Shown: positions 13,291 through 64,000 of the stretch, in pieces
Position numbering within the stretch: position 1 is the first letter of the stretch
Layout: each line of letters opens with the position of its first letter
Assembly (NCBI GenBank): GCA_034780895.1
Contig: JAUZTB010000057.1
Location: 23,062,522-23,126,521, forward strand
Origin: Rhynchobatus australiae
Lineage: Eukaryota
Direction of reading: 5' to 3'
DNA: 64,000 nucleotides
Translations under genes and position numbers: made by a program
The notes under the pieces: model-generated
What the model was told of the DNA's origin: nothing
Seen by the model: the letters and a program-made list of their open reading frames with translations, nothing else
Databases searched by the model: none

Positions 13291-13429
13291 TAAGGTTGTA
13301 CAGGTCGGTTCAAGAACCTGATGGTTGTAGGAAAGTAGTTCAGCCTTGCTCAGTCAAGTCGATCATGTTGTAAATCAGGTTTTATTCTGCGGTGGATTGA
13401 ATGCTGTCTTGTTTTTCTGTGCACCTCAG

Positions 13430-15161
13430 GCGAAGGGAGTCATCGATGCCGCGGCGGCAAGCGGGAGAACGTGAACATGCATCCACCAAAACAGGTCCAC
13501 AGAAAACGCCGTTCCCCCCTCGCAAAATCTCAAGCGACGACGTCCTGATTATAGACCGGAGAGACGGGATACACTTTGTACAACGGGCTGCGGCACAGCA
13601 TGATCCAGTTCAACGGTCCATCCAAGTGAGGCGGAGAAGCCAGTCATCCGACCAGCGGGGCCCACTCAAGCAGTGTGCCGAGGGCGAAGGGTCGGTCCGC
13701 CAGCCTAGCTCGGCTCTACCACAACGGGGCAGGTCGCGTCTGCCCCGGGAACCGACCAGGACCCCCTCCAACTCGAGGCAGAACTCGCCCGTGTCGATCA
13801 GAGGGAAGGCTCAACACGGCGATGGACTGAGCAGCCGGAGCAGAGAGACTCCGCGTCCCCGGGGCCATGTAGGCGACAGGGGGGACGCCGGTAAAAGAAT
13901 GGCCAGGACCAAATCCCCCGCCCCAGCTGCGACCCAAGCAGCACCCAGACATCTGAAGGCCACTCCTTCCATTCCCAGGACCAGGGCACCCATCAATCCA
14001 GCCAGGTCATCCAGTCCCACACCCAAGGTGTATGTAAGCAGACCGCCGCTGTCCATGTCCCGGACCGCCACGGCCGCCCACCATGTGGTGCGCTACGATA
14101 AGAACCAGAACGTGTTGAATGTCTGTGTGGATTCCGACGGCCGGCCGTCTTCTACGGGTTGCTGCGGTACAACCGGGTGTTCCCCAACGTCCGAGACGGA
14201 GATTTTCCGCCCGGCTCAAGCCTTCAAATCCCTCTCAGAAGACGAACTGTACAGGAGCTTTGAGGAAGAGTTTCTGGCCAACACCAGGCAGATTTCGCTG
14301 GAGAGCAATGGTACTGAGGCCAGTGAAACGTTTCTAGTCGCCGGTGAGAGCCTCCCGGACGTGGGAGCGCAGCAGGAGAGCACAGACTCTGCGTGCGGAC
14401 TGTCCGCTGTGAATGGCCCGGGAGAGGATGCAGAAATCCCGAGCCGGACGCCGCCAGAGCGGGCCAGCAGCCCGGAGCCAGAGGGTGGCCGGGACAGGGC
14501 AGACGGTGTGAGCTGGAACGGAGGCGGCCTGGATGACCGTGCCGACAATGTTGTGCAAACGATAGAGAAGGTGGGGGAGCCCGTCCTCTCGAGTCCTCGG
14601 GGCGAAACGGAACTGTACGCGATGGAGCTCCGCTGTCTCCCCACCCGGCCGGGACCTCCTGAGGAAGAGAAGCTGCGAAATGAACAGGTCCCTGAGCTCG
14701 CTGAAGTGGACGGAATGAACCCCCTCCATCTGAGCGATGAGCAAGGGCATGAGAACGGGGAGGGGTCCTTTATTGAGACATCCAGCGAGTCCTCCATCAA
14801 CCTGCAGCTGAACTCGCACCCCGTCCAAATGAGGTCGAGGAAAGGGCTGAAGAAACCCGACCGAGTGCCTTCCGTCTACAAGCTGAAGCTGCGCCCCAAG
14901 ATTCGACCGCGGACGGACAATCGGCCCGAGAAGAGACCCTCTAAGATCCCCACCCCAATCAGCTGCAGGCAAGCGCAGAAATCTCCGCGGTCGCCTCAGC
15001 ATTCTCTGCTGGACGGCGGTCACTCCAGGAGGAAACTGAAACACAAACTGATCCTGTACAGTGAAGACCTGCAGAGTTCGAGGGAGGATCTCCCGTCTTC
15101 ACCCGCCTCCGATGGAGGGAGAGCCCCAACCCTCAACCAGGACGAGGGCTCCTGGGTTTAA
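13430..15161 (+). CDS. GAS2L1: GAS2-like protein 1, large terminal coding exon (basic microtubule-binding tail with SxIP EB-binding motif)
   Basis: Acceptor tcttgtttttctgtgcacctcAG at 13428-13429, then about 576 open codons. Motifs include [23 protein letters not shown] (GAS2L1-type EEEFLAN), [28 protein letters not shown] (SxIP at 14940-14951) and terminal ..SWV*. Neighbours are RASL10 and AP1B1, as at the human GAS2L1 locus. Confidence 0.88.
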
Positions 15162-21645: not shown

Positions 21646-21791
21646 TTACAATTTTCTATTTTGTCCTTAAAATTGATTTCAGGAAAACTAAAGAACAAGC
21701 ATACTGATTCAACATAAATGGGAAATCTGAGCANNNNNNNNNNNNNNNNNNNNNNNNNNNNNNNNNNNNNNNNNNNNNNNNNNNNNNNNNN

Positions 21792-22010
21792 GGGTGGACG
21801 TGTTTACAGCTTTGGCCCACACTGCTGCTCAGGAGTTCTTTAAACAGAAGTAAAATGTGCCAGTTGTATCTAGCAGAACACTCAATGTAGCCACACTTCC
21901 ACATCTTCTTCACCAGGACACTTGTACTCCTCCGTGGAGTGAAACGTTGCTTTTGTAGGTCCCTCTTATTTCCAACAACGATAATTGGTACTTGCTTTGT
22001 GCTTGGCACC
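21792..22010 (-). CDS. RASL10A: RASL10A coding exon 3 (G4 NKRD, G5 CSAR); 3' end and stop hidden in N gap 21734-21791
   Basis: Acceptor gatttgccAG at 22012-22011, then [66 protein letters not shown] running into Ns. Confidence 0.88.
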
Positions 22011-22710
22011 CTGGCAAATCACCAGAAATTAGTAAATGCATTACCAATGTCTAAGACCTCTTGCCATCACAGCTCTCAAAAACTGAGGCTGAACTTCCAT
22101 TTGGAAAATGGCCTCCTGCTTTAGATGTGCTTCTAGCACTCAAAGAAATATTTTCCCTACGACTTCCATAATAAATATTGGCATAACCTTTTAGCAGGTG
22201 TTGCTGGATACAAATAGGTGCTGAAATCTTGACAGCTTGAAAGGTCAACTAATGTATCCATGAACAGCACTATATCCCTCCCACCATAAAGTCATTAAGA
22301 ATGTAATTACACAGCATCTCATATCCTCTGAATATTCTAATTTTCTTTACAGGCAATGATTTGCATTCAGTCAATTTTGTTGGCAAATTTAATCATTTTG
22401 TGCATACAAGTTCCCAAAACAGCAATTTATTGTTTGATATTTTTAGGGGTTATATGTTGACGAAAACACCTTAACCTACTCTTCAAGTAAATAGAACCAT
22501 TGTTCAGAAGAGGTCTTGGTTATGGATTTGAGCTGCAAAACAAATCTCTGGTTTATTTTTAAATGTAGGCATAGCTCTTGATGTTGGTCAGGTGATGTTA
22601 ATAATTGGGATATGTGTGAAAGACTTTGGTAAAGGAATTTAAGGGACCTGATTGGGGGATCCCATTTCACAGGGAACATGTGCCCAGTTCATCTGCATCC
22701 ATGGCAAGTA

Positions 22711-34330: not shown

Positions 34331-35311
34331 GGATCTATGGACTTGTACTCCATGGTTCCTCTGTTCCTACCATTCATGGTGTTATGCCCCAATGCTCCCA
34401 AAGTGCATCCCCTCACATATGCTTTAGTTTTAAACTAAAACTTGTCACCAGTTTTAGTTTTCACTGTAAGCATCTTCTCAGACCTTTCTTGTAATCTTAA
34501 AGCCCCTGAAGGGACCTCAGTTAACCCTTTACCAGAGAATTAAGCAGTGGCCCCTTCAGTGAAGTGTAGACAGAGCCTGCCTGCATCATTCAATGTGAGC
34601 AAGATTATAAATGAAAATTAAACATTTGTGTTTCCTGACGAATGTATTTCCATATCCCATTGAAATATGTAATCATCACATATCCTTTAATACCGTGTAC
34701 ATCCCACATTTGCAGTCTCCATTACAAAGATGAACTAAAGGCTATTAACTGCGTCTCATATTTTTTGTGACAGATGTTTTGCCTTCATAAACTTAATGGA
34801 GCTGTTAATAACTCTCTATCTTCCACGAAATAAATCCAACAGATGATGTATATTGGACCCACTTCTAAAATGTTCGCACCATCCTTTTGTACACATTAGG
34901 AGATAAAATAACAATTTGGCTCCCCAACATCGACTGGAATGGGGAGAGCACGCAATTCCTCGCCTGGAGTATAATTTCATTCCCTGCTGGCTTTTGTCTG
35001 ACAGTTACACGAGTCAAAGCATGAATTAGCTGCCCTTTATTTAGTTTATATTTGCTCGCAGTCACATTGAGCAGATTTCACTCCAAATCATTATGTGCCG
35101 TGTTCAGATCAAAACAGACTGAAATTGTTCAATCTGTTTCATAAACTGGTGGAGGGGAGATCTGTGCCGGTAATCCTTGCATTTCACTTTCCATAGGGTT
35201 AAAAACAAAACCGATGAAATCGGTCAAAGACCAATGAGACGATGAGAAGTTTGAGGGAAATAAATGATCACAGTTAGAGGACGAGAACTGCACAAGCTAC
35301 ACGTCCCTTAC

Positions 35312-35527
35312 CTGAGCGCCGGTCGTTGGAAATGTTGGGATGTGCGGCACATCCACGATCTTCAAGTCGTACATGGTATCATCCAGGATCACGGAGGGTC
35401 TGTGAACGTACCTGCTTGTGGTTGGCGTGTACACTTGGCTGAAATCGTTGTAAAGAAATTGTCGGATTATGGCTGTTTTACCCACTCCGGGAGAACCAAG
35501 CACGACGATTGTAAACGTGCCGACCAT
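35312..35527 (-). CDS. RASL10A: Ras-like protein family member 10A, coding exon 1 (P-loop GSPGVGKT)
   Basis: MVGTFTIVVLGSPGVGKTAIIRQFLYNDFS...YDLKIVDVPHIPTFPTTGAQ, 216 nt, donor CAG|GTAAGG. An in-frame upstream ATG at 35536 would add MCT. RASL10 family by sequence; the A paralog is assigned by synteny with AP1B1/GAS2L1. Confidence 0.88.
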
Positions 35528-35999
35528 TGTGCACATCTCCCTCTCTCTCTCGGGATTCTGGCAATCAGACTGAACTAGGGATGACAGCTCAGACTGTGGG
35601 CTGTGGACTGCAGACGCCGGTGCTCTCTCCACTCTGTGCCTGAGTCTCTCCCAAGATGCTACAAAATGTCTCAGTCCTCTGCTGATTTGCAGAGTGCTCA
35701 AGTCCAGCGAGGAGATGGACCAGGTGAGGAGTCTGTCCAAGTTGGGGCTCCCTTTAACCCCTTAGCTCCGTGTCTCAGAGCCGTTCCCTGCCCCCGAGAG
35801 AGCCGCTTGCTGCTCCATTTCTAAACTCAGTACTGGTCTGCGGAGGATGAGATCGCACCGTGACCTCTCTGCTCTGTTCTTGGGCTCACTGTAACCACAG
35901 CGTCCAAATTCCAGTCGGCTTTATACCGTGTGTGAAATGACTTCAAATAACACAGGGGAACTTTAGCACCAATCTCTTCAGCGGGAAGACAAGCCAAAC

Positions 36000-52964: not shown

Positions 52965-54929
52965 TAAGATTAAAGGACAAACAGCAGCAAATATGCACAG
53001 AATGAACAAATGCAGACTGAAAAAAAAGATTTGCTTGGTGTCACACAAATGTAATGCCTTATGCATCGCAAAATACACACTTCATGCTCCTTCCAAAAAA
53101 CATTTAATTCCTTGGTTAAAAAATAAAACCTAAGTCAATTAAGGGTAAAATTCTTGATAATTCACCTTGGATCATTTCAGCTAACAATGTTACAGAACCC
53201 AGCTTAATGGTATTACCTCCACCCCAGTCTGAAACATGCAGCTATCATTAAAGAAATTCAACAAATTAGCATTCCCACTGGAGCCAATAACTAGTCCCAG
53301 AGATACACCATGCTCTAGGGAAAAAAAAAATCAAGCTATTCTCTCTGTAAAGAACAGGCTCAGAGTAAACTAGCTCTGGTCAAACATATTTTAAGATTGT
53401 GAACACTGGTCTCTTTGCTGATACAAAAATATGTACAATTTACATTTTTCACCAGATTAATTTTTCTTCCAATATATTTTCCAAATGTTAGTTTTGGTAT
53501 AACAAGCATACATAGAATAGGAATCTATCACTAGTTTTTAATTTTCAAGATTTACGATTATGCACTCAAGTAATAACCCCCTCCCCCGACCCCGGAACTA
53601 AATTAAGACTTATAAATATTATTGTTCCTTGAAAATGTTTTTTTTTTACTTTGGCCCTCCAAGAAATTGTCTAACTGATTTATAATGGTCTTGAGCTAAA
53701 ATAACACATATGAATTTCAAAAAACCATTTGTACCTGTTGAAATTAGCAATTTCCATTGTTTCATGTCTCATATAAAAGCTGATCTTGCACAAATTTCCA
53801 AGATTTATGTTAATAATCTCCCTAGATTTATGTTCAATAATTTTGCCAAGGACGATCTAAACTTGTCAAATATCTCTTTTAAGGATTCTTGTGACAAAAA
53901 TTTCCGCAGAATTCTTAAACAGAATATTCTCAGCACCTTCCATGTTCAGATGGGCATTGCAGCTGAAATAATCTTCTTAATGGGCGATATGCTGCTTTGC
54001 ATAATAATAGAAAAGAAAAAGAGGCAACCAGTTGGGAGTAATGTGGCATGGCAGATAACAGCAGCTCAGCGTTATATTCAATTTATGGTACTGGATTTAG
54101 GTTTGTTTTACCCAAGTTTACATTCCAATAATCTAATTAACTTTGTAATTAGAATGTACATTACTGTGCAAAGCATCTTAAAATAAGAACAATGAACCTA
54201 TAATGAATGCTTGCTTGGAACAAGACTGAACATCAACTTTTTTTTCACATTTTATGCACCATCAAGAAAATCATGATATAAAACAAAGAGATGAAAAATA
54301 ACATTTTGTTACACATTCAAATCAACCGTCTGGGTAACTTTTTCCCCACAAGTCCAGTTTATTTCTGATATGACTACTGATCAACACCATATCGGCAATG
54401 TTGGGACCCAAAGCAATATATTATCAGCATGAACCATATTACTAGTGTACAAATACACAAAATGTCATACCACAAAATTTCAAAGTCACATCACACATCA
54501 TGAGGAAGATACAAATTTAAACAAGGACAATTACCCAACAGCTGGAATGGTGGTGTATTGAGCACAGCCTCTTCACATACTCTGGCAATTCACCATGTCA
54601 TGATATTACATTACATTCATATGACTGGGTTCTGAGACAAATCAACATTGCAAATATCTGAATCTTGTATTTAAAGCTAGTTATTAGCAGAATAATGGAT
54701 TTAGATATACTAAGATTGTACAATAGACTTTAGTGTCAATGGGTCAATATACTCAGATCTTGAGTATACAATAAATACCCTTCACAATAATGCAACTTCT
54801 TCAGTGGCACCAAGGTGTCACATTTATAAATTCTGTCCATTATCAGTGCTTATAGGCTTCTGAAATAAACAAGGAAAATTAAACACACAACTGCTGAGAT
54901 CTTCTGCCAGACTTAGGTCATCAAATTGC

Positions 54930-55004
54930 TTAATTCTTCAAAATTATTTCATATGCCTGGAAAACATGTTGGGTTACCCCTGGGGCTCTGCACTTCAGCG
55001 ATAA
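54930..55004 (-). CDS. AP1B1: AP1B1 terminal coding exon
   Basis: Acceptor tctttgttgcAG, then LSLKCRAPGVTQHVFQAYEIILKN* with TAA at 54932-54930. Confidence 0.94.
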   Translation of the reverse strand, partial: LSLKCRAPGVTQHVFQAYEIILKN

Positions 55005-56906
55005 CTGCAACAAAGACAAAGCCAATAACAACAGCGTAAGGCAGATGCTTTATATTGTAATAAAAGAAAGACATATAAAGCTTCTCAGGACATTAGGGTG
55101 CCCCAAATATGTTATGTTGCACAAACATCTCATGTCTGAAGATTACATTGGTATAATGGAGCACAGCCATTTTGGTGAGGACATCACATTTCAATGTGCA
55201 TCATTTTTCATAATTCTTTTTAAGTGATTTAATTTTTTTAATNNNNNNNNNNNNNNNNNNNNNNNNNNNNNNNNNNNNNNNNNNNNNNNNNNNNNNNNNN
55301 NNNNNNNNNNNNNNNNNNNNNNNNNNNNNNNNNNNNNNNNNNNNNNNNNNNNNNNNNNNNNNNNNNNNNNNNNNNNNNNNNNNNNNNNNNNNNNNNNNNN
55401 NNNNNNNNNNNNNNNNNNNNNNNNNNNNNNNNNNNNNNNNNNNNNNNNNNNNNNNNNNNNNNNNNNNNNNNNNNNNTTTATTTACCATGAACCTAATATT
55501 CAAGAACATATTTAGACTTTACCATTCCATCTGTTCAAGAAAAAATACAATTGCCACTTTGTGAACTTCACATTGATCAAATTAGCAGAGCACTGCACAG
55601 GAAATCACTGCTGGCCATATCCTGCTCATTCATAGAAGCAGACAAGTACAAAAATAGCAAGTAATGAAACGGCCTCTTCAAACACAGGGCTCAATTGAAT
55701 AGCAATGAAGGCAAAAACCACTCTATTTCATTAAACTGTATGAATAATCCAATTTGTAATCAGTAAAGGTCATGGACACAGGTTCACAGAAGCAATACAC
55801 TTTGCAGGACATTTGTGAAAGGCATTGCCTGTGGTGTAACATACCCTTTTAAGGGATGAAGCAAATGCTCAATTTACACATTATAGAAATCCATTGGAGG
55901 AAGCAATAAATGCCTGACATCACCCTCTAGATTTCACACAATAAATGTAACAGAGTGGTTTTTAAATTAGCAAGCAGAAGAGACATGTAAGCTGAAAATG
56001 AATAAGTTTATGAATAAAATGTTCATCCCCATATATACACATACTGTACAAGACACTGCAGGATAAGTACTATGGGTATTTTATAATGGCTCTGGTGCTT
56101 TATTGGTACAAACATTTCTATACATTCATACTTTACCTGATAGGTTCTGAATTACAATTACATAAAACTGCTTTGTATACATATTTAGCAACAAGGTATT
56201 CAACACGTTACTGACTCAAGGAGTATTTTATAGTCTGTTCTTAATGCTGATATAATGATGCTGTTAACACACAAGAAATTCAATTGTTCTCTTGAGATTG
56301 AATTTTCCCCTCTCCAGAATTAATTGTTAACTGCTGTAAGCACAATATGTTGCATAAAAACAGTGCATAACACCAGTTTGGGCAAAAATAAATCATCTAT
56401 TGTGTTTGATAATAATGGCATTGTACTTGAAATGTTACTAATTTACTATATCTACAGCCTTCATTACTCCTGTTCAAATTTCAACTAAACAAAATTTTCA
56501 ATTTATGATGGCTAATGACTTTAATGAGAATCACAAACCAGAGTGCAAAATTCTTACTGGAAATACATTTTAAATTATGTTTAATTCACAGGCTCTTGCA
56601 AGTAACGACTGAAGATTTGTAATATTCCTAATTTTTCTTATGCTGGGAATCAATAATAGAAAATAATTTTAACATGTAAATTAAATCAAAGCCTGAGTTT
56701 ATGATTTAAAGTTCTAACCAACAATTTACGTGGGAAGTTGATAATGAAAGATTGGTCTGGTCATGAGATTGTGGGTCAGTGACTATAAAAACAAGCTCCA
56801 GAAAAAGCTAGCCAGCAAAGCATAGTAACAAAGACACTGCATAAGCATAGGGCAAAGAATGGAAGTGGCAAGTTTGCAACTGACTAAAATTAAATGAATT
56901 GCTAAC

Positions 56907-56915
56907 CTCCAAATC
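56907..56915 (-). CDS. AP1B1: AP1B1 9-nt alternative microexon (Asp-Leu-Glu)
   Basis: Minus strand reads ..ccggtcAG|GAT TTG GAG|GTtagc, phase 0/0, between ..NYT and LSLK.., where the long human AP1B1 isoform carries DLE. Confidence 0.85.
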
Positions 56916-57643
56916 CTGACCGGTAGGACAAAACCATCACGGCAGGCATGCAACAAAGGAAAAAAAAACATAACTATAAAATACTACAGCTTTCCCCCAA
57001 CAGAAATATAAAAATCTAATCTTGATTTATATATAGAAATGGCATGTAGGGATATAATGCTGCAAAACATTAACACACACATAGGGAAGACTACACAATG
57101 ACACTTATTAGATAAGGCAACAGAGAACCCAAACAGTTAAATTACATCATTACAATTAAAATATATAATACTTAAAGCAATTAAGCTCACATCTAAACAA
57201 AACACAATTTAAAAGTACAGTAAGTTGTAAACCTGAAACTTCCACCATATATGACAAACATAAAACTTAGAAATGGAACATCATTCTGAATATTGTGCAA
57301 AATCTATTAACAGGAAACATTTATCACCTTGATTTTATTTCAGTAATATACAAGAAATGTTCAAGGGACTGTTGTAATGTTGCCAATAAGGACAGGTTGA
57401 TAAGGATTTTCGCAAATTTATACTGGCTTGTTAAATGAATGCTAACAATAGTGGTATCTGAAGTGCAGTAAAAGTATATCCACACACACAAAATGCCATT
57501 AAAGGAAAAACACACATTACCATCTCTTTCCATGCCCCATAATACTATAATACAACAAGATACAAATTTCAAATATCAAAGTAAAACTTCTGAAGGCATA
57601 AACGGAGACAATAAAAGGAGACGTTAAGCTGTTCAACACTTAC

Positions 57644-57798
57644 CGTGTAATTAGGATTGCCAGGTTGGATCCTTAGCTCTGCTAAAACCCAGATTCCATT
57701 GCTCAGTTTTAGGGACTGATATAACATATCTTGCCCTTCAACATTCCTCTTTGCAACAGTAAATATATTATTGTTAAAGAGTTTATCAGTGACAGCAT
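57644..57798 (-). CDS. AP1B1: AP1B1 appendage platform exon
   Basis: (D)AVTDKLFNNNIFTVAKRNVEGQDMLYQSLKLSNGIWVLAELRIQPGNPNYT, 155 nt, acceptor ttacAG, donor ACG|GTAAGT. IFTVAKR and GIWVL match AP1B1 rather than AP2B1 (VYTIAKR, GIWIL) as I recall them. Confidence 0.93.
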
Positions 57799-59271
57799 CT
57801 GTAATGTAAGAAAAATATTTAGTATATTTTTAGTCAAATCAGTACAAACACTATGACATACAAGTACAGCTTCTATAGAGAATATGGAAAATGCGCCTCA
57901 AGCCAGCAAAGTTTGTTTCTGCACAGTTCTTAGCAATCAATTTCACATAATGAAAACATGATATTGGCATGCTCCCCTACTTAATGCAGTTTGAGACTAA
58001 AACACAAAGTTCAAAGTGGAATACAATTAAATAAAATTCAAAAATTAAATCTATAAATACGATATCCTGTTAAATTTGATTCTAGATTATACTGATCCAC
58101 NNNNNNNNNNNNNTTTTTGATGACTCTGAAAACTAAATTATTTGACAAGTGAAGCTTCAAATAGCTAAGTTAAATCCTCCGCAGGCTAATATATCCATTT
58201 ATTTGCTAAGACGTAATAATATTTACAATGCTTTGTACAAAAATAAGGTTATACCTGTTTCATCCAAACCTCAGGTAATTTATCCCAAATTAAACAATAA
58301 CATTACTTATTAAATGGTAACAGCTTGAAGCTACCAGAAATTTAGTGTTAATAATTTAAAACAATTCATAAACTGTTGATATGGTAATCAGGCCTCCATA
58401 TACATTCATTTTAATTGTATTGTGTTTTACATCTCTAAAATACCCATGCATTACAAAGATGTCATAGAAAGCCATCTTCTAACAGCATTGATTAGAATAC
58501 CTTTTATTTCGAATAACAAATTATTATTCAGGCACTTTAAAGGCAGTGAACAGGGAGGGTTGATGCTTTTTATACAGACCAAGTAATAAAAATCATGTAA
58601 TTATATCAAATCCCTTGATAATATTTGATCCAGCATCATTCAAGTTCCAACACAGAGAGAGTGAAATAGCTGAATATGTAATCCAAGTAGATTTTAGAAG
58701 GAGACTGTTTCAGCATGAAAGCAAATCAGTCAAGTTTGAACATTTATTAAGTGGTTACCAAACTCGGTTTCATTTGCTGCTTCACAAAGAGCTTTTACAA
58801 ATTAAGGTCAAGGGCTTTAAACACCCAAATCAAAGAGCTTTCAAGGATGAACGTAATGGACAAATAGAATAGACAAGATGGCACATATTGTTGAAGATCA
58901 AAGGAAGTGCGATTTCTGCAGCACAAATGAGTCAGTTCAGGAATACAATCTGCTTGAATACTGAATTCAACTACAATATTGATGGGACCCAGGAATTTCT
59001 TTGATTAAATTAAGGACAGGAACTTAGTTGCATATCATCTCCCAGAACATAAAAAGAATTGCCACATTTCTTTGTGCTGCACCAGACTTGGTAAACTGTC
59101 AAAACAGATGTTGCCATACATGTTAATTGACTTTAAATGCTGTCATTTGAAAAGTTTTCAGAGAGAGAACAGAAGCAGACCTTGCAAAGTCTTCCTAACA
59201 AACATCTGGGGACAGGTGTCTAAATAAGAGCTGCTGACTGACNNNNNNNNNNNNNNNNNNNNNNNNNNNNN

Positions 59272-60762: not shown

Positions 60763-60849
60763 CTGCATTAAGGTGACAGTCTTTGATTTGAAATTGTACT
60801 TCATTTTCATTTGGAATGTCCTTCCACGTTGCCAAAAATATCTGTCGAT
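60763..60849 (-). CDS. AP1B1: AP1B1 appendage exon
   Basis: (D)RQIFLATWKDIPNENEVQFQIKDCHLNA, 87 nt, poly-T acceptor tgcAG, donor CAG|GTGAAA, phase 1/1. Confidence 0.93.
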
Positions 60850-62817
60850 CTGCAAAAAAAAAAGTGCCTCAGATTATACAGGTCTTGGCTTTGGATCTAA
60901 AATTAATCAGGCAATCTACTTGCTCCTTTTCCTTACAATCAAGCACAAAACTCAATCTGAAGACATTTGTCAACCAGAGTTTAGGAAAATTTTATGCTAG
61001 GTTGCTTAGGAAGTATCTTAGCTACAGATATCCAGGGTGGAACGTGCTTACTGGGTAGCATTCTTGCCTTTGAGAACACTGGATTCAAATCTTACTCTAG
61101 AGACTTTAGCATAAGAATTTAAACTGTTAGCTCAGCAAGGAGATGCTGAATTGAAGATTAAATCCTATCTGTCCTCTTGCAGTAACAGTAAAGGTCATTT
61201 AGCAGTAACATGCCCTAGCAAAAAGAGAAATGTAGATTTGCTTTAATGCCTTTCCTGCTGCCACATTTTACATTTGGTATATAAAGATTGGGTGTTTTGG
61301 TGCTTTGATAACCATGGACCATTCTTCAGCAAAAAGTGATGCTTCCAGAGATTAAATGAGAAAGTGTCAAGTAGGTGAAAGACTGTACGTGACATTAAAT
61401 GGCTCCAGCCAGTTACTGCTGTGCTGTCAATCAAAATTTAATACCCTAGAGATACTGAAGGACCATCCACACTTGGTCATTTGTGCTAATGACTGTCCAG
61501 AAGGCCCCATCTGCCCACATGTTAATTTAGGTGTAAAGCACCAAAAAAAGGAGAAATTATTTGAAAACTGCAAGCAAACATTTCACTAAAACCTCATGTT
61601 GTATATCTTCAGAAGGGATATTAGTTGACATTATGTCCTAGAGCCTTAGATGGACGCTTGGGAAAGAAGAGGTCAATCCATTTTCAATCACTAAACTTCT
61701 CAACACGTCTATATTTAGACATGTGAAATATATAAATGCAGAATAGATTTACTGGAATTTGAAATTTCACCAGTACACTTTGCTATTTTGAAAATGGCTC
61801 AAATGTTTGGCAGTGTACATAAGTAGATGGAGTACCTATTAGAACTAATCCACAAGGAATGCCTTAAAAATATACATTGTTCACTATTCCACCAACAGTT
61901 TGACATGTTTTTGAATTTTATGCTAACAGCCAAAATCTACTGANNNNNNNNNNNNNNNNNNNNNNNNNNNNNNNNNNNNNNNNNNNNNNNNNNNNNNNNN
62001 NNNNNNNNNNNNNNNNNNNNNNNNNNNNNNNNNNNNNNNNNNNNNNNNNNNNNNNNNNNNNNNNNNNNNNNNNNNNNNNNNNNNNNNNNNNNNNNNNNNN
62101 NNNNNNNNNNNNNNNNNNNNNNNNNNNNNNNNNNNNNNNNNNNNNNNNNNNNNNNNNNNNNNNNNNNNNNNNNNNNNNNNNNNNNNNNNNNNNNNNNNNN
62201 NNNNNNNNNNNNNNNNNNNNNNNNNNNNNNNNNNNNNNNNNNNNNNNNNNNNNNNNNNNNNNNNNNNNNNNNNNNNNNNNNNNNNNNNNNNNNNNNNNNN
62301 NNNNNNNNNNNCCTATGGAAAGATATTTCAGACTGTCCAATGGGCAGAATTTTTTTTCCTCTGTTATGTACAATTTATTGATTCCAACATTAAATTAAAA
62401 CTCACAATCCATTAAACAGTTAGAGAATTTATCATTAATAAATTTACAAAAATATTAAAAAATACAAGGCAAAAATGCATGGAATATTTTTTTCTGAGTA
62501 CGGAATGCAGATGATGAATAATATAATACAAGGTCTGTTTTAATCTTGCATCGATTTGCAACAAAAACTAGGATATACTTTAATAATTGTACAGGAAACG
62601 TGTGAGAGTTCAGAACTCATTCTATTCCTGTCTGCTCACTTTTTCAGATTCACTGCGGAGAAGTGGAGTGCATTCTATCCCAAGTCATCTATTTTTATCC
62701 TTATCTTTGGAGGATGGTTATATACATCATTGTTTTATACAAGTCATTTGTCTAATACAAGTCATTAGAACCTTAGTTCAATCATTCCAGGTAAATGCAC
62801 TAAGAATATTAACTTAC

Positions 62818-62902
62818 CCAGTTTTCCTTCTTCCAGAAATAAGATATTAATTGGGTACAGGCAACTGAAGTAGAAGACATCAATATTATTTTTCACTGCA
62901 AC
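62818..62902 (-). CDS. AP1B1: AP-1 complex subunit beta-1, appendage-domain exon
   Basis: VAVKNNIDVFYFSCLYPINILFLEEGKL, 85 nt, acceptor ttttcttttgtgagcAG, donor G|GTAAGT. Confidence 0.92.
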
Positions 62903-64000
62903 CTGCTCACAAAAGAAAAAAAATAGAATTAGTTTTAGCTCTTTGCATTTAAAAATATTTGCATTTAAAAATAAGAAAAAAACTATGATTCTTGCTCATA
63001 CTTTCATGCAAATGGCACCGCATTTCAAGGAGAGGATATCCAAAAGTTGATGTTTCTGTGTACTAATTTGCCATTAACCTTGCAAATCAGTACCTCACTG
63101 CTAACCCCATTCTTGAGAAGCATCTAATGCCACAAAATCACATCTATATGGAGAGATACAAACTGAGCACGCAAAGAGAAGTTGGACCTTGCCAAGTCCA
63201 AGTACCCTTTCAATGAAATGAAACATCAATTATTGACATTCAATCTTTCTGATGCTGAAAATTCACCTGAGAATGTAATTACTTCCAGAATTTATTGTAT
63301 TATTGGAATTGTTAAAGGTGGTAGACCTTTTTTTATATATACATCTTTGTTTTTGGACTCTTGTTCAATCTTATTTTCCCTCTGTTTCATGTTCTGCACC
63401 AAATTTAACATTGAATTCACCATCTTAGTCTTTGGGCTGTCACTTCCCATTTCTCCAACTTTCCTAGCCGAGACGTTGGTAGTTCTCGTTTCAGCAGCCA
63501 ACCATACCAACAATTTAAAAATCTAATTCTGCAAGAAGAAGACTAAGTAATGTCAAAGGGCATTGCACCTTCTACTTTAGCAAACTCAGGTCAATATCAA
63601 CCTCTTGGGAAGAGTCTCTAGGCCTTTTCTTGCCTTTCACTTAATTTGTACCTAGGAGAATAAAGGTACAAGTTCACCAAGACCTGCAGCAAAGCCTTCA
63701 GTAATTTCATCAAAATGTAGAATGTTTGAAGTTTATAAATTGCTTACAGAAATATCTCTGTACAAAGCCTGCTATTAAAAAGTACTCTTATATAAGAGGT
63801 CCTCACCGAGCAAGACTTGTCACAAATTTCATACCCTATCTGAAGGATTCAGAACTGACCAGGCAGTTTCTTTTTTAAAAAACAAAGACAGAGTACAAAA
63901 AAAACAAAAAAAAAATCAGGATATCATGCTTCTCTCTCTGTGCTCCTCACAGAAACTTAATCNNNNNNNNNNNNNNNNNNNNNNNNNNNNNTTTTGCAAG

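What the first reader, a model, noticed from the sequence alone, without database searches (positions are those of the whole stretch)
56880..56990. Hidden 9-nt AP1B1 microexon (DLE) with a neural-microexon-like acceptor
Seen: the minus strand reads T9-cctttgt-TGCATG-ccTGCcgtgatggttttgtcctaccggtcAG|GATTTGGAG|GTtagc. It has an AG-free stretch of about 55 nt, a displaced pyrimidine tract, UGC motifs and an RBFOX-type UGCAUG (56952-56947), and it is frame-preserving between ..PNYT and LSLK... Knowledge: the long human AP1B1 isoform has DLE at this position in the appendage platform, and UGC motifs before microexons are the SRRM3/4 signature. Inference: this three-residue switch predates the cartilaginous/bony fish split and would be missed by ORF or ab initio annotation. 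The surrounding intron (55005-57643) also shows no repeats I can recognise, which suggests constraint.
Basis: partly seen in the sequence, partly recalled or inferred. Interest (0 to 1): 0.7.

Follow-up and report, generated by a model that had tools for sequence, protein, structure and literature searches.

The report
Ancient three-codon AP1B1 microexon in ray
This is a real nine-letter exon that adds three amino acids (DLE) to a vesicle-sorting protein in a ray; it is likely the same exon already catalogued in humans, appears in shark gene models, is spliced into the assembled transcripts of related species, and is likely not restricted to nerve cells, so it is an ordinary but missed piece of annotation.

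Summary
The exon is real. Minus-strand AG|GATTTGGAG|GT lies at 56915-56907, in frame between the last two large exons of AP1B1 of a stingray-like batoid. All 8 sequencing runs laid (5 organisms, 6 studies) carry a 9-nt insert at this junction; one spells it out, and no skipped junction appeared. The exon is ancient: DLE-like inserts occur in AP1B1 of sharks, coelacanth, teleosts and tetrapods, and were not seen in AP2B1-type or lamprey proteins. It is not new. A human 9-nt AP1B1 exon is catalogued (HsaEX0004865), rises from PSI 26 to 71 with SRRM4, and is already 32-53% included in six healthy non-neural tissues (PMC7935315 supplements). Four shark gene models contain DLE; 14 of 14 batoid proteins seen lack it. 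So the SRRM3/4-type reading fits, but a neural-only switch does not: the AP1B1 exon in a zebrafish neural-microexon table is the separate 21-nt one. Tissues of the ray runs are unknown. DLE falls beside the ligand pocket of the appendage platform; any effect on binding is untested. Low interest.

The parts
56907..56915 (-). 9-nt microexon of AP1B1, encodes DLE, phase 0 on both sides
   Evidence: Sequence; 9-nt insert at the junction in 8 of 8 runs laid; DLE at this place in shark, teleost and tetrapod AP1B1 proteins
56916..56973 (-). Extended acceptor region: 56-nt AG-free zone, U-rich tract at 56968-56953, TGC at -37, -33, -29, acceptor CAG
   Evidence: acceptor use shown by a contig of run X7 that joins the upstream exon to the microexon with the downstream intron still in place (tables 7 and 8)
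56947..56952 (-). TGCATG (RBFOX-type hexamer, also holds the first TGC); role inferred only
   Evidence: gene models that read through this intron in a basking shark and a tamarin give Cys-Cys-Met at the same distance within 1 nt, which fixes TGY-TGY-ATG but not the exact hexamer
56901..56906 (-). Microexon donor GTTAGC
   Evidence: microexon joined to the last exon in contigs
56760..57156 (.). Intron block around the microexon that stays close in related species
   Evidence: Run X5: 28 other letters and 7 gaps over 397 nt, against 8 over 159 in the upstream exon, while 56305-56760 did not align at 85%; run X9 covers 56760-56912 and 57038-57156
57644..57799 (-). Upstream AP1B1 exon (appendage platform, 52 codons, ends PNYT)
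   Evidence: Pfam PF09066, E 3.8e-16; 100% to ray AP1B1 proteins
54930..55004 (-). Coding part of the last AP1B1 exon (LSLK...KN stop); the 3' UTR runs on below 54300
   Evidence: contigs cover 54301-55004
60764..60850 (-). AP1B1 exon before the 57799-57644 exon (approximate ends)
   Evidence: tblastn 100% over 29 aa; loose ends of contigs at 57801
62819..62905 (-). Further upstream AP1B1 exon (approximate ends)
   Evidence: Exact peptide mapping, residues 821-849 of P0004

Best explanation
This is a spliced 9-nt AP1B1 exon that inserts DLE into the C-terminal platform of the beta1-adaptin appendage, shared across jawed vertebrates, likely included to a substantial degree in many tissues and likely raised further by SRRM3/4. 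Shown here: the exon and its splice sites, its inclusion in assembled transcripts of five related organisms, and at least some molecules losing the upstream intron first. Inferred from the human exon and from published microexon rules: the far-set pyrimidine tract leaves room for UGC motifs where SRRM3/4 would help early spliceosome assembly, so inclusion would rise in neurons from an already high base. Predicted, untested: DLE lies between the positions matching beta2 T913 and L914, flanked by pocket residues E902, R904 and K917, and would tune binding of helical ligands such as ARH, beta-arrestin and epsin to beta1 but not beta2.
For: Junction surplus of exactly 9 nt, ending in the exon's own letters, in 7 runs with one spliced contig each, and the letters spelled out in run X7. 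The window gene groups with batoid AP1B1 (100/100) and the contig-C66 paralogue with AP2B1 (98/95) in a 21-row tree. Of 237 proteins with a readable junction (346 held), 42 have a three-residue insert, 32 of them DLE; among 99 with the AP2B1-type WIL motif only a catshark AP1B1 has one. Both forms are on record for three sharks and the coelacanth. Human HsaEX0004865 (9 nt): PSI 26.3 with GFP, 71.3 with SRRM4; 31.9-53.3 in six healthy non-neural tissues (PMC7935315 supplement rows). Two SRRM_C loci exist in this genome. Pocket residues and ligands: passages of PMC5694535 and PMC3082197; numbering.
Against: No run has a recorded tissue, none is shown to be the window's species, the tool only guesses they are RNA (three flagged probably DNA, though they hold exon-exon joins), and contigs drop minor forms, so no PSI and no tissue pattern were measured in rays. 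No skipped junction was seen in any of the 8 runs, so alternative splicing in this lineage rests on sharks, on batoid gene models, and on a skate protein without DLE recorded on 15 contigs including Logan assemblies. That HsaEX0004865 encodes DLE is inferred from gene, length and isoform differences; the table gives no sequence. SRRM4 response comes from one overexpression table in human cells. UGC motifs are not strictly needed for, nor proof of, SRRM4 control (10.1101/2024.09.17.613571, section 10). The structural effect is untested.
Confidence: 0.7

Rival explanations
1. A classical neural-specific microexon: skipped in non-neural tissue and switched on by SRRM3/4 in neurons.
For: Three TGC after a far-set pyrimidine tract and a 56-nt AG-free zone, the layout described for neural microexons (abstract of PMC12871342; passages); human exon gains 45 PSI with SRRM4; 14 of 14 batoid proteins seen lack DLE.
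Against: Human non-neural PSI is 32-53. The included form is the assembled form in 8 of 8 runs from 6 studies chosen on genomic words only, so not picked for inclusion; that all are neural is unlikely (inference). The zebrafish neural table lists only the 21-nt ap1b1 exon (PMC12626424 supplement).
Confidence: 0.1
2. In stingrays and their close relatives the exon has become near-constitutive, and batoid gene models lack it only because aligners miss nine bases.
For: No skipped junction in 8 of 8 runs; in run X7 the contig ends (55006, and through the whole exon at 57643) fit a graph with no skip branch. The read-laying tool itself mis-placed the nine letters, showing how easily it is missed.
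Against: Contigs show the majority form only; a skate protein without DLE is on record in Logan assemblies; sharks and human keep both forms; the regulatory-looking acceptor is conserved.
Confidence: 0.18
3. A chance AG-N9-GT match in an intron, not an exon.
For: 57 in-frame AG...GT candidates of microexon size exist in this intron.
Against: Exact DLE expected 0.0006 times by chance; spliced into transcripts; conserved in protein records across jawed vertebrates.
Confidence: 0.01

Closest known systems
Human AP1B1 9-nt exon, VastDB event HsaEX0004865 (chr22:29329712-29329720; PMC7935315 supplements)
   Same: Same gene, same length; DLE at residues 923-925 of the 949-aa chain in PDB 8D4D aligns with the shark DLE; listed as an SRRM4 target with basal non-neural inclusion.
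   Different: Human non-neural inclusion is a third to a half; in the ray-related runs the included form was the only one assembled. The identity of the event with the DLE exon is inferred, not read from sequence.
DLE-bearing AP1B1 isoforms in shark and coelacanth gene models (XP_067911592, XP_041058018, XP_043571572, XP_038638837, XP_014351883)
   Same: Same insert at the same junction (NYT-DLE-LSLK; DLK in coelacanth).
   Different: No batoid protein seen (0 of 14, five genera) has it.
SRRM3/4-regulated neural microexons (3-27 nt)
   Same: Size, frame preservation, far-set pyrimidine tract, UGC motifs before the AG, vesicle-traffic gene.
   Different: About two thirds of SRRM4 targets are not included in healthy non-neural tissue (passage of PMC7935315); this one belongs with the third that is.
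AP1B1 21-nt hinge microexon (DreEX0013673 / HsaEX0004866)
   Same: Same gene; also present in this genome with a TGC-rich acceptor.
   Different: It is the tissue-restricted one in zebrafish (neural PSI 34, near 0-4 elsewhere; retina 77), lies in the hinge, and is outside this window.

Membership tests
AP1B1 (beta1-adaptin) rather than AP2B1 | Groups with AP1B1 orthologues, with a separate AP2B1 paralogue in the genome | tested here: met
   Tree, (no tetrapod AP1B1 row included); tblastn pattern; 100% to ray AP1B1
Microexon | 3-27 nt, bounded by AG and GT | tested here: met
Microexon | Spliced into transcripts | tested here: met
   8 of 8 runs laid, from related organisms; not shown for the window's own species
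Alternative (cassette) exon | Both included and skipped forms exist | tested here: inconclusive
   Both forms on record in sharks, coelacanth, primates; no skipped junction in the 8 runs laid; skate protein without DLE in Logan assemblies
SRRM3/4-regulated microexon | UGC between a far-set pyrimidine tract and the AG | tested here: met
   TGC at -37, -33, -29, U-rich tract at -53 to -38, AG-free 56 nt
SRRM3/4-regulated microexon | Inclusion rises with SRRM3/4 | not testable with these tools
   Published for the human 9-nt exon only (+45 PSI); two SRRM_C loci in this genome
Neural-specific microexon | Skipped outside the nervous system | tested here: inconclusive
   Not met in human (PSI 32-53); ray runs lack tissue labels but all show inclusion
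RBFOX-regulated exon | UGCAUG bound by RBFOX with an effect on inclusion | not testable with these tools
   Hexamer present, position roughly conserved, but common (18 on this strand); search listed no paper on it

The most novel reading that the evidence does not exclude
In stingrays and their kin this SRRM4-type microexon has become the default form in all tissues, fixing an acidic three-residue insert next to the ligand pocket of the AP-1 beta appendage, while sharks, skates and mammals keep it as a tunable choice: a natural case of a regulated microexon turning constitutive, invisible in current ray gene models.
Probability: 0.2. Interest if true: 0.4.

Novelty: already known. Interest (0 to 1): 0.2.

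Why it matters
Mostly as a correction: ray AP1B1 models seen here omit what appears to be the main isoform, and the exon can be dated to at least the jawed-vertebrate ancestor and to the AP1B1 branch of the AP1B1/AP2B1 pair. The one open question of wider value is what DLE does to ligand binding at the beta1 platform, a site used by ARH, beta-arrestin and epsin; eight paper searches listed no study of that, but the library lacks most subscription papers.

Tried and rejected
AlphaFold2 on the natural white-shark isoform pair with and without DLE: pLDDT under 50 over the whole platform in both, so uninformative; no fold search was run. No RNA holder was listed on record by the run search; the RNA nature of the runs rests on their exon-exon joins. 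The tool's joint 55010 to 57643 with AT between first looks like a non-canonical skip; it was rejected as an alignment artefact of inclusion because six intron letters mimic the exon with one mismatch and the surplus is 9 nt. Search for a matching exon in the AP2B1-like paralogue's 30,269-nt intron (1,208 N, including the end of the upstream exon): one weak candidate (EVD, purine-rich upstream) rejected, no blastn similarity (best E 0.2); absence is not proven. A crude QH/QY paralogue label mislabelled bird, turtle and teleost AP1B1 and was dropped for the WVL/WIL split. A search of the own genome with the intron found only itself, which the tool says is no evidence of rarity. Supplement searches for AP1B1 were blank in PMC7821500, PMC12626420 (file 13 not searched), PMC12868881 and file 9 of PMC7935315. 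One microexon paper recalled from memory was not held. Earlier scan findings: none. An ORF at 58564-58872 is not an AP1B1 exon.

Full report
Observation. The 9-mer GATTTGGAG lies at 56915-56907 between AG and GTTAGC and translates DLE. It splits the 55005-57643 intron into 728 and 1902 nt. The AG-free zone is 56 nt, the U-rich tract ends about 38 nt before the exon, and TGC stands at -37, -33 and -29. The intron has 57 in-frame AG...GT candidates of 3-27 nt, so shape alone proves little, but only 1 of 57 encodes DLE and 0.0006 are expected by chance. Of 1166 YAG sites on the gene's strand, 36 have so long an AG-free zone and 3, this one included, also have three TGC. TGCATG is common: 18 on this strand. 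A 234-nt N run lies in the intron, so the no-repeats remark is only partly checkable.

Gene. The upstream exon scored higher against solved beta2 than beta1 chains, so identity needed a test. It is 100% identical over 52 residues to proteins named AP1B1 in Hypanus and Hemitrygon. A second locus on contig C66 matches lungfish AP2B1 better. In a 21-row tree of the appendage region the window gene sits among batoid AP1B1 (100/100) inside cartilaginous-fish AP1B1 (96/94), and the C66 gene among AP2B1 (98/95); the wider AP1B1 group with coelacanth has 92/90, and no tetrapod AP1B1 row was included. The organism is therefore a stingray-like batoid (inference).

Transcripts. I laid 8 of the 24 listed runs: five organisms, six studies, all contigs, none with tissue on record, exons about 93-99% like the window. 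They were found with genomic words, so not chosen for inclusion. Seven have one spliced contig across the intron, reported as 55010 to 57643 with AT between. Record span minus exon bases is 9 in four runs, and 10, 10 and 8 in three where listed UTR indels account for the difference. The six intron letters next to the last exon differ from the exon's reverse complement at one place, which explains the mis-placement. Run X7 gives the letters directly as loose ends, and also holds a low-depth contig in which the upstream exon is joined to the microexon while the downstream intron remains, showing use of the acceptor at 56916. No skipped joint was listed in any run. Limits: contigs drop minor forms, several tables were cut, and the tool flags three runs as probably DNA although they hold exon-exon joins.

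Conservation. Of 346 proteins held, 237 had a readable junction; 42 carry three extra residues (DLE 32, EME 3, NLE 2, DLK, EIE, SLQ, PLQ, VCQ once each). The set is enriched for inserts because searches used a DLE-bearing query and one search listed only 120 of 575 hits. Named carriers include four sharks, coelacanth, teleosts, a caecilian, a turtle, birds and mammals. Three sharks and the coelacanth have both forms. Among 99 proteins with the AP2B1-type WIL motif, only catshark AP1B1 has a three-residue insert; 13 of 13 lamprey proteins with a complete junction lack it; 14 of 14 batoid proteins lack it. The AP2B1 paralogue's intron gave no credible counterpart, with N gaps as a caveat. Around the exon the intron stays close in relatives (28 differences and 7 gaps over 397 nt in X5) while 56305-56760 did not align; a second block near 55505-55990 also aligned, less well, and no control intron was laid. 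Two faulty gene models read through the acceptor region: a basking shark one matches the ray's same frame at 14 of 17 residues, and a tamarin one has Cys-Cys-Met with the ATG at -33 against -34 in the ray.

What is known. The 949-aa beta1 chain in PDB 8D4D has DLE at 923-925, aligned with the shark insert (that the chain is human is recalled, and fits the SCT motif of a Homo sapiens record). In supplement rows of PMC7935315, a 9-nt AP1B1 exon, HsaEX0004865, goes from PSI 26.3 to 71.3 with SRRM4 (the table whose header fits the HEK293 list) and has mean PSI 31.9, 33.7, 53.3, 44.2, 34.3 and 33.2 in healthy breast, kidney, lung, uterus, liver and colorectum (I saw these rows and passages of the text, files 13-19 unsearched). 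That this event is the DLE exon is inferred. Supplement rows of PMC12626424 list only the 21-nt ap1b1 exon among zebrafish neural exons; in PMC9303857 I saw two of four places per file, the 21-nt and a 66-nt exon, and no hit for HsaEX0004865. From 10.1101/2024.09.17.613571 (passages and section 10): SRRM3/4 targets have far-set pyrimidine tracts and UGC motifs, but UGC is not strictly required. From PMC12871342 I saw abstract and outline; from PMC13676984 one passage.

Mechanism. Shown: the exon is spliced in, keeps the frame and adds DLE. Inferred: the acceptor layout lets SRRM3/4 raise inclusion; two SRRM_C loci exist in this genome. Since the human exon is a third to a half included outside the nervous system and inclusion is the assembled form in every ray-related run, a broad basal inclusion with a likely neural boost fits best (0.7); near-constitutive inclusion in stingrays (0.18) and a neural-only switch (0.1) are the rivals. 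At protein level the insert falls after the position matching beta2 T913, between E902/R904 and K917, charged residues around the platform's ligand pocket (passage of PMC5694535); ARH, beta-arrestin and epsin bind this platform in beta1 and beta2 (passages of PMC3082197). An effect on that binding is a prediction; the folds gave no usable model of the platform.

Verdict. A sharp and correct observation of a real, ancient exon that ray gene models seen here miss, but already known in human and shark records, and not the neural-only switch proposed. Interest 0.2.

Noticed in passing
L010:7686-7666 (G000:C57 near 23133685, outside the window): The 21-nt hinge microexon of the same gene (7 residues, the difference between ray isoforms of 954 and 947 aa), with a TGC-rich acceptor that also holds TGCATG. 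This is the AP1B1 exon listed as neural in zebrafish.
   Followed up: partly
window 35300-35761 and 21791-22018, minus strand: Two exons of a Ras-family gene downstream of AP1B1 (Pfam PF00071); RASL10A is the expected neighbour (recalled, not tested).
   Followed up: no
window 13401-15158, plus strand: A 586-codon open frame in a GC-rich stretch with no Pfam hit; possibly the long last exon of a GAS2-like gene (recalled synteny, not tested).
   Followed up: no
window 55505-55990: A second intron block that aligns in organisms B and C, less closely than the block around the microexon.
   Followed up: no
window 56916-56960 (proteins P0140, P0294, P0142): Public gene models in basking shark and tamarin read through the intron upstream of the microexon, and a Mustelus model shifts frame at this junction; likely artefacts of aligning a 9-nt exon.
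   Followed up: partly
L023 (G000:C66:32365801) and L024 (G000:C57:11112970): Two SRRM_C domain loci, on the same contigs as the AP2B1-like and AP1B1 genes; likely SRRM3 and SRRM4, not assigned.
   Followed up: no
window 57799-57770 and 54990-54975: Batoid AP1B1 proteins share substitutions near the platform (DKLFN for NKLQS, G for E in APEV), and the batoid branch is long in the tree (0.073).
   Followed up: no
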